From the NCBI GenBank assembly GCA_963703315.1, contig OY969811.1:704001-768000 (forward strand): DNA of 64,000 nucleotides. The letters are read 5' to 3'. Positions 51,710 to 59,306 of this stretch are shown piece after piece. The notes below the pieces were generated by a model. That model did not search any database, had not been told where the DNA came from, and worked only from the letters and a program-made list of their open reading frames with translations. This DNA comes from an uncultured cyanobacterium. GTDB lineage: Bacteria > Cyanobacteriota > Cyanobacteriia > Pseudanabaenales > Pseudanabaenaceae. Positions within the stretch are counted from its first letter, which is position 1; every line of letters starts with the position of its first letter. Both the position numbers and the translations under genes were made by a program.

Positions 51710-51742
51710 ATAAAAAAAGATTGTGCTTTGCACAATCTTTTT

Positions 51743-51973
51743 TTACATCTCTTGGAGAGTTTTCCAGCCAGGTTGCCATAGCGATCGCCTTTTGAGGGCT
51801 TTAGCATTGAGCCAAAACCTCACAGAATCATCACAAGCTGCTTTGATCTCTGCAAAAACTAAATCACCCTCATTTTTGCGATTGACTACTACAAAATGTC
51901 GCCAGCCAAAGGTTTCTTGCATAGCTGTCCATTTTGATCCGATTAAATGCGGAAACTTTTGTTTTTTCGGCAT
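51743..51973 (-). CDS. TIGR02450-type Trp-rich protein
   Basis: GSKWTA..GWRHF..W.PGW. Confidence 0.85.
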   Translation of the reverse strand: MPKKQKFPHLIGSKWTAMQETFGWRHFVVVNRKNEGDLVFAEIKAACDDSVRFWLNAKALKRRSLWQPGWKTLQEM

Positions 51974-52022
51974 GGCATATATTTAGACATAAAAAATTGC
52001 GAGTAATCGCAATTTTTTATGT

Positions 52023-52265
52023 CTAATCAACATCATCATCATCAAGATCATCATCATCGTCATCGATGTAACTAGCATCATCACCGAGCATCAATTCACT
52101 CAGTTCTTCAGCTTCATCATCAAACTTTAGGCTGGACTCAGTGCCTTCTCTAGCAATCAGTCTACCTGTAGACTCTAACCAATCCAAGATCGATACTTCT
52201 TGCTGAGTAGGAATGATGGCAGCAGGTTGGTTGCGGCGTTGAACGCGCAAAGCGGGGTTATTCAT
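52023..52265 (-). CDS. DUF3134 family protein
   Basis: NPAL..R.QPA.IIP..SILDWLESTGRLIAR, acidic tail; ATG at 52265. Confidence 0.8.
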   Translation of the reverse strand: MNNPALRVQRRNQPAAIIPTQQEVSILDWLESTGRLIAREGTESSLKFDDEAEELSELMLGDDASYIDDDDDDLDDDDVD

Positions 52266-52741: not shown

Positions 52742-52795
52742 CTAGATATCCGTCCATAGACGTGCATCAACAAATCTAGAAATATGTTTGATATT
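52742..52795 (-). pseudogene. 3' remnant of a PIN-domain toxin gene
   Basis: Translates NIKHISRFVDARLWTDI*, resembling the C-terminus of cyanobacterial PIN proteins (N..HL.RFV.A..W..I). Confidence 0.6.
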
Positions 52796-52823
52796 TTTTT
52801 CATATAATCACAGGACTATAAAG

Positions 52824-54353
52824 CTTACGGTTCGCTGATGTTTGAAATAAGTCAAAACATTTGACGAAAAAATTTAATTGTTATCACTCAGCAGGTCTAT
52901 TTTTTTCTACATCCATTAAGAGATTTTGCAATCCCTGATAGGGAGATGGATATATTTTTAGCTTCTTATGCCACTTATCAATCCATTCTTTTTCATCTTC
53001 CTCACAGTTTTGATCGGATAAATCCTTTAGACTATCAGGAAGATTTGTATTGCACAGATATGTATGCTTCAATTGTTCTCTTGTTAACTCCTTTGCATCC
53101 TCAAAATCTGCACCACTGAGGTTTGCGCCATCAAGTTTTGTGCTTTTGAGATTTGCACCCTTAAGTTTGGTATATTTGAGATTTGCACCTTCAAGATTGG
53201 CTACGAATAAATCTGCACTCTCAAGATTAGCGCATGTGAGATATGCGCCCTTAAGCCTGCTTCCTACAAAGTTTACGCCATTAAGCCATGAGGATTCTAG
53301 GTCTGACCCCTTAAGATTAGCTCCTGAAAGATTTGCGTTCCAAAGATTAGCTCCTGAAAGATTTGCGTACTCAAGATTAGCTTTTGAAAGATCTGCGCCA
53401 TTCTCTAAAGTTAGACCAGAAAGAGATTCACCCTGCTCAACTAAATCTTCTAATGCTGCAATCCTAGCGCCGCAAACCTTCTGACTATGAGATGTATGAA
53501 TCACTTGCCATGCTTGGTATTTTGCTTGCCGTTCACGTTGAGGGATTTCTTGGAGAAATTTCCATCCCACGTAGAGGATAGTTAAATTTGGTAGCACACC
53601 AAAAAACCACAATAGCCCCTGCCCTGTCAACTTAAATCGTTGGCTACGGCTTAGATCTTGATAAAACCAAACAATTGGACTTAGTAAGTTGTCCCTCCTA
53701 ACATCTGGCAGGAGGTCTGGATTTGACTTTTGGAGAGCTAATAGCTTTTTGTATTCATCGGGTTTAATTTCAAGCTTCTTAGATTCGCTTTGGATCATTA
53801 GTTCCCGAACAAATGGGTCAGTCTTCTTGTTTACAGCCTCGATACTATTTTTTGTCTTAGAGATCAAATCTTTTAATTCTTGACTTTCCAGACTATTTTC
53901 TTGTTTATTTTCTGGGTAGAAAGCTATGGACAAGAGCAATAAAACGAATAGACTACTACCAATCTTTAAGCCTGTCATCAAGCCATTATTTTGCTTCAAT
54001 CTAGAGACAAACTTGCTCTTGAGCAAAGTCTCCCAAAAAGGTCTGCTTGGGACATTATTATTTTCCAATATTCTTTATCCTCAATAACTATTTATCACTA
54101 TCAAAAATCTTAATCGTTTTAAGATTTTACAAGTTTAATCATATAAATTATGGTTTGCTGATTTTTTAAGTGTAAACAGCTTTCATTTATTTAGTTTTTA
54201 ACTACTAATAATCAGTAATTAATTTTTTTAAGATGTTATTGTCAACATAATTCCTATAAAAACCAATAGTAGCATCAAAAAATTTACAAATCCTGAAAGA
54301 CCTATTTTCTCGTCAAATGTTTTGACCTATTTCAAAAATTAGCGAACCAGAAG
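52824..54353. mobile_element. Non-autonomous cargo-carrying element (50-bp TIRs, 6-bp TSD ATAAAG)
   Basis: 52824-52873 matches the reverse complement of 54304-54353 at 44/50; ATAAAG at 52818-52823 and 54354-54359; no HIP1 seen inside. Confidence 0.8.
52884..54068 (-). CDS. Membrane-anchored pentapeptide repeat protein
   Basis: Two hydrophobic segments, YQAWQVI..RI.ALE.L linker, A(D/N)L.. repeats. Confidence 0.9.
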   Translation of the reverse strand: MENNNVPSRPFWETLLKSKFVSRLKQNNGLMTGLKIGSSLFVLLLLSIAFYPENKQENSLESQELKDLISKTKNSIEAVNKKTDPFVRELMIQSESKKLEIKPDEYKKLLALQKSNPDLLPDVRRDNLLSPIVWFYQDLSRSQRFKLTGQGLLWFFGVLPNLTILYVGWKFLQEIPQRERQAKYQAWQVIHTSHSQKVCGARIAALEDLVEQGESLSGLTLENGADLSKANLEYANLSGANLWNANLSGANLKGSDLESSWLNGVNFVGSRLKGAYLTCANLESADLFVANLEGANLKYTKLKGANLKSTKLDGANLSGADFEDAKELTREQLKHTYLCNTNLPDSLKDLSDQNCEEDEKEWIDKWHKKLKIYPSPYQGLQNLLMDVEKNRPAE

Positions 54354-55025
54354 ATAAAGTGGTGAGTTTGGATCAAGGCACTCTTGTAAGTAATTCCAAG
54401 TTTCGGTTTGTTCATCTCCATCTTCAGCTAACCATTCTTCCATGAGTCTAGCTAGACCTTGACGTTGTTTTTCTCTCGTTTTCTTAGGATCTTGACTGTC
54501 TATTCTGGTGATGATGCTTGTAAAGTAGCTGTCTAGTTCGGTGACAATATCAGAATTTTTGAGCAGTGGCTTAACTAAGATTTGGATTTGTCTAACTACG
54601 GTAACTAGGAATTGAATTTGTGTGGATTCGTTTTGAGATTTTAGGGATTGTAGGTTCAATTGTTCTAGGATTAATGCATCATTACCAATGAGTGCGTAAG
54701 TAAGATAGTGCAAAATATTTTTGCAGTCGCTGGATAGGTCTTTTAGAAATTCTTGAGTAATTGATGCTTGGGTAATTGATGTAGTTGTTTCGGTGATCGG
54801 GATTTCTTGAATAGCCACTAAGATCGCTTCTCGGACTATTTTTTTCGCGTTGACTGTAAGTAGTTGGACAAATTCTAAGATTTCTCTTAGTCGTGCTAAA
54901 GATACATCAGTATTGAATGTGTCCATAAATGAGTCGGTATTAACATTAATGGTTAATTCAGTGACTGATTCAATAGTTGGGTCAGATGTGATCATTGCAA
55001 TATTTTGCATAGCTTTGCCCCTCAT
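54339..55025 (-). CDS. Degenerate phycobiliprotein-fold domain fused to an antitoxin-like C-terminal segment
   Basis: NAKKIVREA, D...ILHYLTYALIGND..IL, ELDSYF; tail LMEEWLAEDGDEQTETWNYLQECLD. Confidence 0.6.
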   Translation of the reverse strand: MRGKAMQNIAMITSDPTIESVTELTINVNTDSFMDTFNTDVSLARLREILEFVQLLTVNAKKIVREAILVAIQEIPITETTTSITQASITQEFLKDLSSDCKNILHYLTYALIGNDALILEQLNLQSLKSQNESTQIQFLVTVVRQIQILVKPLLKNSDIVTELDSYFTSIITRIDSQDPKKTREKQRQGLARLMEEWLAEDGDEQTETWNYLQECLDPNSPLYLLVR

Positions 55026-57447: not shown

Positions 57448-58566
57448 ATGAAACTTAAAAGAGTCTCTATCAAAGGGCTAAACAATAAGGTTGATTGTGA
57501 TTTTGAATTTCACGATGACATAAATATTGTCACAGGCATTAATGGCTGTGGAAAAACAACATTATTAAAAATGCTCTGGTATGCAATTTCAGGAAATATC
57601 GAGCATCTTATGTCTGAAATAAGTTTTGAATCATTTAACTTAGAAACTAGTTGTTACTCTTTATTTATAACCAACAAAGATAGTTTTATTGAGTGGAAAT
57701 ATATTGGAAATAATATTGAGGAGAGTCGTGCAGGACTATCTAAAAGTGGCGCACCTTTAAATGACCTTATCATTCAACATAAAACATCATCTGTTTTCTT
57801 CCCTACTTTTAGAAGGATAGAGGGAGGATATGCAATGATTAATCCTTATAAGAAAGGTCGTACAGCAAGTGGAGCAAGAACTGCTACATATATGCAGGAA
57901 GAGTTTATGGAAAAAGACGCTATAAACATACAAGATAACCTTGATAAATTATCGAAACTTCTAACTGTTCTCGATCATAAGTTTGTTTGTTCTATATCAA
58001 CTCATGATCTTGTTACTCTAGTAAATTCGCGCCATGCTGAAAGAGCTGAAGAAATTAATGAATATTCTCTTGAATTAAATAAATCATTGATTAACAAAAT
58101 TGAAAATATAAAATCTGGTATTGAAGATAACAAGGAAGAGTCTCTAGTCATTCTTAGCAAACTTCAACAAGAAGTAACTATTGTTAATAATAAACGTGAT
58201 GAACTTTTTCAACCTTTCAAGGTCTTATCAGAACTAGTGATAAACATTTTAAAATATAAAGAGGGTATTAAACTTAATGATTTTCAGATAGGGGGAGGAA
58301 TGCTTAAGGCTATTGATTCCAGATTTCTTTCATCTGGTGAACAACAAATGCTTAGCTTTCTTTGCTATAACGCATTTTATGAAAACTCAGTAATATTTAT
58401 TGATGAGCCTGAGTTAAGTTTGCATCCAGACTGGCAGCGTAGATTATTTCCTAACTTGATGAAGCAACAATCAAGTAACCAATTTGTTGTAGCTACACAT
58501 TCTCCTATGATTTACTCTAAATACTCAGACAAAGAAATTATACTTTCATCGGAGAAAGGTGAATGA
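57448..58566 (+). CDS. ABC/AAA_21-type ATPase, PARIS AriA-like
   Basis: GINGCGKT, LSSGEQQ, FIDEPELSLHPDWQ, ATHSP. Confidence 0.85.
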   Translation: MKLKRVSIKGLNNKVDCDFEFHDDINIVTGINGCGKTTLLKMLWYAISGNIEHLMSEISFESFNLETSCYSLFITNKDSFIEWKYIGNNIEESRAGLSKSGAPLNDLIIQHKTSSVFFPTFRRIEGGYAMINPYKKGRTASGARTATYMQEEFMEKDAINIQDNLDKLSKLLTVLDHKFVCSISTHDLVTLVNSRHAERAEEINEYSLELNKSLINKIENIKSGIEDNKEESLVILSKLQQEVTIVNNKRDELFQPFKVLSELVINILKYKEGIKLNDFQIGGGMLKAIDSRFLSSGEQQMLSFLCYNAFYENSVIFIDEPELSLHPDWQRRLFPNLMKQQSSNQFVVATHSPMIYSKYSDKEIILSSEKGE

Positions 58567-59306
58567 GTAGAGGAAAGTATCTTTCTGAAGATGAAATTGT
58601 AGATCTATTGAGAGAAACATCACTTCCAACAATTTTAGTTGAAGGCAGCGATGATTTATCGGTATATAACAGATACTTAGAAAGCAAGATTAATATTGAA
58701 GATGTTGATGTTTTACCTTGTCAAGGAAGACCGACTCTTCTGAATATTTTTCAAAGAAGAGCAGAATTTAGAAATGCTAAAGTGGTCTTTGTTGCAGATA
58801 AAGATATGTGGTTCTTTTGTGGCATTCCAAAAGAATATGAAAATCAAATAGTATTTACAGATGGATATTCATTAGAAAATGATATTTATGTTGAACAAAG
58901 TTTTAAAAAACTATTAGATAAAGAAGATTTAAAAAAGTTTGAGAATTTAATTAAGCAGTTATCAATTTGGTTTGCTTTTGAAGTCAATAGATATAAAGAA
59001 ACTCTTGAGTCAAAATGTGATGTTAATACAGATAGGATATGTCCAGACGATACTATCTGCCCTAATTTTAAGCAAGCAATAAATTTTGTCGATCCACCTC
59101 AAGAGCTTGTAGGTCTCATTCATCGTGAATATGCTAGAGCGTTGCGTGGTAAAAACTTATTTCAGGCTTTATTAAGGTTTTTAACTCGTCGGACATCAAA
59201 TTATAGTCGAGCTAATCTTCTTGAGCTTGGTTCAAAAGTGCTTGATAATCCACGAATAGAAATTTTGGTTAACAAAATCATGGAAAAGTTTCAAGAATAT
59301 CGCTAA
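58563..59306 (+). CDS. DUF4435 TOPRIM-like nuclease, PARIS AriB-like
   Basis: ILVEGSDD, ADKD, YSLEN, RGK; ATGA overlap with the ATPase. Confidence 0.8.
   Translation: MSRGKYLSEDEIVDLLRETSLPTILVEGSDDLSVYNRYLESKINIEDVDVLPCQGRPTLLNIFQRRAEFRNAKVVFVADKDMWFFCGIPKEYENQIVFTDGYSLENDIYVEQSFKKLLDKEDLKKFENLIKQLSIWFAFEVNRYKETLESKCDVNTDRICPDDTICPNFKQAINFVDPPQELVGLIHREYARALRGKNLFQALLRFLTRRTSNYSRANLLELGSKVLDNPRIEILVNKIMEKFQEYR

What the first reader, a model, noticed from the sequence alone, without database searches (positions are those of the whole stretch)
52818..54359. Transposase-free 1.53-kb element with 50-bp inverted ends and a 6-bp target duplication carrying a pentapeptide gene
Seen: ATAAAG|CTTACGGTTCGCTGATGTTTGAAATAAGTCAAAACATTTGACG.. 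at the left and its inverted counterpart (44/50 identical) followed by ATAAAG at the right. Each end holds the palindrome GTCAAA-N3-TTTGAC. The interior has one cargo gene and no HIP1. The right end supplies the last codons and stop of the neighbouring gene. I do not recognise these ends as a named IS family. Inference: a gene-delivery cassette mobilised in trans; the inverted ends could also allow inversion.
Basis: partly seen in the sequence, partly recalled or inferred. Interest (0 to 1): 0.72.

Follow-up and report, generated by a model that had tools for sequence, protein, structure and literature searches.

The report
Mini-transposon pair carrying one gene
In this cyanobacterium a repeat-protein gene sits between the ends of two tiny enzyme-free jumping elements and is flanked by a duplicated 6-base target, so it likely jumped here once as one block using a borrowed IS1634-type enzyme; this is a known gene-moving trick, seen here with an element family for which I found no report.

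Summary
The 50-bp ends (44/50) and the ATAAAG duplication are real. A close relative has the empty site with one ATAAAG.

The ends are not a new kind. They are the left end of a Pseudanabaena MITE family (48 complete copies fetched; 46 with 6-bp and 2 with 5-bp duplications). Its outer 20-24 bp are identical to the ends of a complete 1,794-bp IS1634-family element with a 6-bp duplication.

It is single-copy, and no transposase with these ends was found in the genome, so it is likely stranded.

The same cargo, again bounded by these ends, lies at another locus in a second species (dS 0.18 against 0.64-2.1 for four core genes), which points to horizontal transfer. There the right MITE is flipped at exactly the same junction. 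No inversion of the whole block was seen.

It works like TIME-COMPs and the IS1634 composite Tn6097: a new variant of a known kind, of modest interest.

The parts
52818..52823 (.). left copy of the 6-bp target duplication ATAAAG
   Evidence: single copy in the G015 empty site
52824..52873 (+). outer left end: 50-bp stub of the MITE left end, 3/50 differences from the left end in L071; rest of that MITE is gone
52851..52865 (.). sub-terminal palindrome GTCAAA-ACA-TTTGAC, a feature of the MITE left end only; absent from the IS1634 element L107
52884..54068 (-). cargo gene, 394 aa, TTG start: one hydrophobic N-terminal segment (about aa 28-52), a conserved middle part and pentapeptide repeats (about aa 224-345); dN/dS about 0.38 against the G002 copy
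54141..54146 (.). ATATAA at the cargo/MITE junction, likely one half of the older target site of the inner MITE; same junction in G002
   Evidence: ATATAA occurs twice among the 48 MITE targets
54147..54353 (-). whole decayed 207-bp MITE (25% GC); both halves match the outer element of L071 (88% and 77%)
54147..54196 (+). inner right-type end, decayed: 9/50 differences, including the terminal C; holds a sigma70-like -35/-10 (54176/54147, 10 of 12) facing the cargo, untested
54304..54353 (-). outer right end = left-type end of the inner MITE, 3/50 differences from the left end in L071
54354..54359 (.). right copy of the target duplication ATAAAG
54339..55025 (-). target gene (phycobilisome/globin-like domain, PF00502); the insertion swaps its last five residues SPVII for LLVR
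52742..52817 (-). cut-off tail of the target gene plus a 62-nt remnant of the PIN-domain gene that follows it in G015 (about 390 nt missing here)

Best explanation
The block is a transposase-free composite of two MITE-derived arms with IS1634-type ends around one pentapeptide-repeat gene, and it likely jumped into the end of the neighbouring gene as one unit using an IS1634-family transposase supplied in trans. Shown: the anatomy (left-end stub, cargo, whole inverted MITE), the 6-bp duplication, the empty site, the MITE family, and the identity of the outer 20-24 bp with a complete IS1634 element. Inferred steps: (1) MITE copies inserted on both sides of the cargo, probably in a lineage with a MITE burst. 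(2) The transposase paired the two outermost ends, both left-type; the inner end has lost its terminal C and would be a poor substrate. (3) The unit was inserted at ATAAAG. (4) The cargo reached this lineage by horizontal transfer. (5) It is now likely immobile, because this genome's IS1634 copies have unrelated ends. The cargo is kept under purifying selection; its role is untested, most likely a membrane-anchored pentapeptide-repeat protein of an accessory cyanobacterial family.
For: Empty site with one ATAAAG in G015, and the same uninterrupted junction (ATAGGA) in G045. 48 complete MITE copies at distinct sites: 46 with 6-bp and 2 with 5-bp AT-rich duplications. L107:1759-3552 is 1,794 bp, has a 20-bp perfect TIR and an AATATA duplication, and scores NF033559 IS1634 E 1e-88, above cut-off. 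Its ends are identical to the MITE ends for 24 and 20 bp. IS and MITE co-occur in G022. The TIR motif recurs beside related transposases in other cyanobacteria: both ends found at 8 of 24 loci, three with 6-bp and one with 5-bp duplications. Published IS1634 traits are 1500-2000 bp, ends C-----YT and 5-6-bp AT-rich duplications (PMC2266710, Table 1). The same cargo with these ends lies at another locus in G002; dS 0.18 against 0.64, 1.24, 1.44 and 2.08 for four core genes. The IS1634 composite Tn6097 has inverted copies and 6-bp repeats and was caught transposing (PMC3281130, passages).
Against: No second copy of the whole 1,530-bp unit with its own duplication was found. G002 has lost its outer right end and has no testable empty site. 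Contigs in runs X2 and X6 carry cargo plus inner end but leave the match at 54310-54311, without the outer end. The L107 element lacks the sub-terminal palindrome, so the exact parent of the MITE is not in hand. No transposase match at E<=1e-10 was found in G030, the genome with most ends (fragmented assembly). 0 of 8 wider end pairs in the fetched multi-copy loci share a duplication. Transposition was not tested.
Confidence: 0.83

Rival explanations
1. A plain MITE made the duplication at ATAAAG. The cargo came in later by recombination with a MITE-bearing donor, and a flip of the right MITE between its 20-bp repeats gave the two left-type ends.
For: The right MITE is found in both orientations at one junction, so flips happen; a flip keeps a duplication intact.
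Against: It needs two extra events. The window's orientation (right-type end inside) is also in runs X2, X3 and X6, and in X2 and X6 the contigs run on into other sequence, so it likely predates this insertion. No plain MITE at this site turned up in the 48 genus genomes.
Confidence: 0.08
2. It is one IS1634 derivative whose transposase gene was replaced by a passenger gene (a mobile insertion cassette).
For: Its length (1.53 kb) is IS-like, it has terminal repeats and a 6-bp duplication, and the ends match IS1634.
Against: Both outer ends are left-type, and a full MITE with its own second end lies inside. No transposase remnant: only 37 bp match L107.
Confidence: 0.05
3. The 50-bp arms are sites for a recombinase that inverts or excises the block as a switch.
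For: Long inverted arms with an internal palindrome; the inner MITE occurs flipped in G002.
Against: The arms are dispersed MITE ends with variable 5-6-bp duplications, the mark of DDE transposition. No recombinase gene among the 11 ORFs scanned around the site. No strand-changing joint in the likely source run (contigs only).
Confidence: 0.04

Closest known systems
TIME-COMP / IMU-bounded units (PMC4133298, passages; PMC13367494, abstract and Introduction)
   Same: Passenger DNA between two MITEs in direct or inverted orientation, no transposase, duplication outside the outermost ends, transposase in trans.
   Different: Those have Tn3-type ends, mostly 5-bp duplications and whole MITEs on both sides, mainly on plasmids. 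Here the ends are IS1634-type, the duplication is 6 bp, one arm is cut to 50 bp, and the site is a cyanobacterial chromosome.
Tn6097 of Paracoccus ferrooxidans (two ISPfe2, IS1634 family; PMC3281130, passages)
   Same: IS1634-family composite, inverted arms, 6-bp duplication.
   Different: Tn6097 is autonomous, with two whole ISs and a 14-kb core; this unit has only MITE-derived arms and one gene.
IS1634 family (PMC2266710, Table 1 and family paragraph)
   Same: End signature C-----YT and a 5-6-bp AT-rich duplication; outer 20-24 bp identical to a full member (L107).
   Different: No transposase; sub-terminal sequence with the palindrome is not shared with L107.
Mobile insertion cassettes such as MIC231 (named in PMC3281130 and PMC2266710; details recalled)
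   Same: Non-autonomous, IS-ended, carries a passenger gene.
   Different: A MIC has one left and one right end of one IS; this unit has two left-type ends and an inner MITE.

Membership tests
MITE-bounded composite (TIME-COMP-like) | MITE-derived arms on both sides of passenger DNA | tested here: met
   Whole MITE at right, 50-bp left-end stub at left
MITE-bounded composite (TIME-COMP-like) | target duplication outside the outermost ends, single copy in the empty site | tested here: met
MITE-bounded composite (TIME-COMP-like) | no transposase inside | tested here: met
MITE-bounded composite (TIME-COMP-like) | moves when the cognate transposase is supplied | not testable with these tools
   needs a transposition assay
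TIME-COMP in the strict sense | Tn3-derived ends | tested here: not met
   the ends match an IS1634 element
IS1634-derived non-autonomous element | terminal repeat shared with an element encoding an IS1634 transposase | tested here: met
   24/20 identical terminal bp with L107; NF033559 298 bits, cut-off 100
IS1634-derived non-autonomous element | 5-6-bp AT-rich duplication; ends C-----YT | tested here: met
   46 of 48 with 6 bp, 2 of 48 with 5 bp. Family end CTTACGGT has C1 and T8 but G at position 7, so the YT signature is met only in part
IS1634-derived non-autonomous element | derived by deletion from a known autonomous parent (shared sub-terminal sequence) | tested here: inconclusive
   L107 shares 35/50 and 27/50 of the two ends; no parent with the palindrome
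Autonomous IS1634 element | encodes a DDE transposase | tested here: not met
Mobile insertion cassette (single-IS derivative) | one left and one right end, no inner ends | tested here: not met
   two left-type ends plus an inner right end
Qnr / HetL / PipB pentapeptide families | score above the family cut-off | tested here: not met
   all 16 NCBIfam hits lie below their cut-offs

The most novel reading that the evidence does not exclude
This IS1634-type MITE family acts as a reusable gene-shuttle kit in Pseudanabaena. Bursts of MITEs box up genes and carry them between species, and the upstream MITE can flip cleanly at its own ends, so that either of two ends, one carrying a promoter-like sequence, faces the cargo and changes its expression.
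Probability: 0.12. Interest if true: 0.55.

Novelty: new variant of a known kind. Interest (0 to 1): 0.32.

Why it matters
It is a well-documented natural case of a gene that likely moved between cyanobacterial species by MITE ends alone: empty site, duplication, active MITE family and candidate transposase are all in hand. It extends MITE composites from Tn3-type ends to IS1634-type ends, and suggests that a 50-bp stub is enough. It gives a ready test pair (L107 transposase plus short ends) for a poorly studied IS family. It does not reveal a new mechanism.

Tried and rejected
Other copies in the own genome: none at up to 17/50 mismatches; only the three ends at this locus.

Own IS1634 copies as partner: 8 copies, 25% identical to L107, with unrelated ends; rejected.

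The NF041680/IS701-like transposase beside a MITE end in L108: it appears to have inserted into the MITE; rejected as partner.

Plasmid collection: no match. Viral contigs: none. Metagenome scan with a 51-nt end: none. With a looser pattern: 12 loci, 8 with MITE ends and 4 without a terminal repeat; none gave a transposase or a cargo between ends.

Empty site for G002: mutM and alr were not found adjacent in the other 47 genus genomes as listed, so it cannot be tested.

HIP1 absence as evidence of foreign origin: weak. Promoter in the inner end: the scan found 6 sites against 5.4 +/- 2.7 in shuffles, and 6 of the 9 changes are C>T, which fits plain decay; kept as a lead only.

In one search the alr comparison was out of frame and was dropped from the dS figures; the inner-end comparison there was off by one base and was redone.

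Earlier-finding look-ups by sequence and by words were empty. No fold or complex job was run.

Full report
OBSERVATION. The arms at 52824-52873 and 54304-54353 are 44/50 identical in inverted orientation, and ATAAAG lies immediately outside each. Both arms hold GTCAAA-ACA-TTTGAC. The interior has one long ORF, 52884-54068 (-), 394 aa, with pentapeptide repeats. The neighbouring PF00502 gene ends LLVR* inside the right arm; in G015 it ends SPVII*. HIP1 is absent, but so it is from 300 of 2983 tiles of this size. The element is single-copy in the 4.57-Mb, one-contig genome.

EMPTY SITE. Of 10 relative loci tested, L003 (G015) has both flanks joined by a single ATAAAG. L004 (G045) has the same junction with ATAGGA, three more (L008-L010) have a more diverged uninterrupted version, and five gave no usable match. 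So the 1,530 bp are an insertion with a 6-bp duplication.

WHAT THE ENDS ARE. A scan of the species collection for the end gave 62 stretches (58 loci), all titled Pseudanabaena: 57 loci from one assembly and 1 from another. They contain 48 complete copies at distinct sites of a 226-bp MITE (47 identical, one of 227 bp). 46 have a 6-bp and 2 a 5-bp duplication, AT-rich, with no fixed sequence. The MITE has a 20-bp terminal repeat but different left and right sub-terminal parts; the palindrome belongs to the left end only. G030 holds 148 matches to the 19-bp terminus, and the reversed-pattern control has 0. A sister MITE, the outer element in L071, is closer to the window's sequence.

THE PARTNER. 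In G022, L107:1759-3552 is a complete 1,794-bp element with one 573-aa ORF, a 20-bp perfect repeat and an AATATA duplication. The protein scores 298 bits on NF033559 (IS1634; cut-off 100) and hits DUF4277 and DDE_Tnp_1. Its ends are identical to the MITE ends for 24 and 20 bp, and G022 also holds a MITE copy. Among 24 related transposase loci from other cyanobacteria, 8 show this type of repeat at both ends (three with 6-bp, one with 5-bp, three with no duplication, one at contig ends), 7 at one end, and 9 at neither. A 206-bp element with such ends and a 6-bp duplication also occurs in G713 (L228). These traits fit the published family description (PMC2266710, Table 1 and family paragraph read). 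Against: L107 lacks the palindrome, so it is a candidate mobiliser, not the proven parent, and G030 gave no transposase match. The window's genome has 8 IS1634 copies, but at 25% identity and with unrelated ends. The unit is therefore likely stranded.

TRUE ANATOMY. A third end starts at 54147. 54147-54353 is a whole 207-bp MITE whose halves match L071 at 88% and 77%. The unit is thus a left-end stub, the cargo, and an inverted whole MITE, so both outer ends are left-type. Each outer end differs at 3 of 50 positions from the L071 left end; the inner end differs at 9 of 50, including the terminal C. I infer that the transposase used the two outer ends.

THE CARGO ELSEWHERE. Among 48 genus genomes only G000 and G002 matched over the cargo (six candidates were scored per genome, so misses are possible). 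In G002 it lies between mutM and alr, with a left-type end downstream, interrupted by an unrelated 100-bp repeat. A MITE of the same family starts at exactly the same upstream junction (..CATATAA|) but in the opposite orientation, and lacks its far end. The cargo is 91% identical with dS 0.18 and dN 0.068. Four in-frame core genes have dS 0.64-2.08; a fifth was out of frame and was dropped. This indicates transfer between lineages, and purifying selection on the cargo. Contigs from runs X2 and X6 (one study) carry cargo plus inner end in the window's orientation and then diverge at 54310-54311; the X6 contig at the cargo's 3' end runs into other sequence without the left stub. A short X3 contig covers 54116-54354 in the same orientation. 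So the window's orientation is the commoner one, and G002's is likely a flip between the 20-bp repeats or a second insertion at the same target; I cannot tell which. Record 17 of X6 shows a whole MITE and a second, oppositely oriented inner-type end about 1.9 kb away, without our cargo: a possible second composite that I could not fetch. The protein search returned 20 relatives of the N-terminal 225 aa, the query included, all unnamed beyond 'pentapeptide'. All 16 NCBIfam hits are below cut-off.

MECHANISM. Most likely (0.83): two MITEs landed around the gene, an IS1634-family DDE transposase paired the outer ends, and it inserted the unit at ATAAAG in the last codons of the PF00502 gene, which stayed nearly intact. 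Anatomy, duplication, empty site and end identity are shown; mobilisation by this enzyme, the order of events and the vector are inferred. In the fetched multi-copy loci, 0 of 8 wider end pairs share a duplication, so such jumps are rare. No inversion or circle of the whole block appeared in the likely source run, but contigs drop rare forms.

COMPARISON. It works like TIME-COMPs (PMC4133298, passages; PMC13367494, abstract and Introduction) and like the autonomous IS1634 composite Tn6097 with inverted copies and 6-bp repeats (PMC3281130, passages). MITE-flanked integrons are reviewed in PMC10969869 (passages). IS1634 activity in Microcystis is reported in PMC11448079 (passages); its MITE is assigned to ISL3. 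It is not a TIME-COMP in the strict sense, since the ends are not Tn3-type. Six literature searches (listings only, apart from the papers named) showed no IS1634-type MITE composite and no description of this MITE family. ISfinder, most subscription journals and supplements were not seen; the large MITE catalogue PMC11602168 (listing only) may include the family in its supplements.

VERDICT. Real, and explained as a new variant of a known kind. Interest 0.32.

Noticed in passing
window 52742-52817; L110:4113-5326: In G015 the target gene is followed, with overlapping stop and start, by a PIN-domain gene (PF01850). In the window that gene is reduced to 62 nt by an internal deletion that does not touch the element. 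The target's acidic C-terminus looks like a cyanobacterial antitoxin motif fused to a globin-like domain (recalled, untested).
   Followed up: partly
L002:1383-1481; G000 3124727, 360321, 4037827, 765067 and others: A second, about 100-bp dispersed repeat with inverted ends GGCAYTGG..CCAGTGCC; 10 blast hits in the own genome and common across the genus. Possibly another MITE; family not tested.
   Followed up: partly
L071:3996-4444: A 226-bp MITE nested inside its sister MITE with its own TCTTAA duplication; the outer element has no duplication.
   Followed up: yes
G000 346539, 1177073, 2061456, 3133588, 3209525, 3892645, 4019604, 4512334: Eight near-identical copies of another IS1634-type element with different ends; 5-bp duplications are visible at most copies.
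   Followed up: partly
run X6 record 17: Whole MITE plus a second, oppositely oriented end about 1.9 kb away with a different interior; the second end is listed with 0 differences from window 54148-54194. Could not be fetched.
   Followed up: no
L112:2388-3200: Internally deleted 813-bp IS1634 copy in G005 with both ends and no duplication.
   Followed up: partly
window 57448-59306: AAA ATPase plus DUF4435 gene pair in low-GC sequence, absent at this place in G015; looks like an accessory defence or toxin-antitoxin-type pair.
   Followed up: no
window 51983-52026 and 51711-51745: Perfect 20-bp and 16-bp hairpins between genes, likely terminators or REP-like repeats.
   Followed up: no
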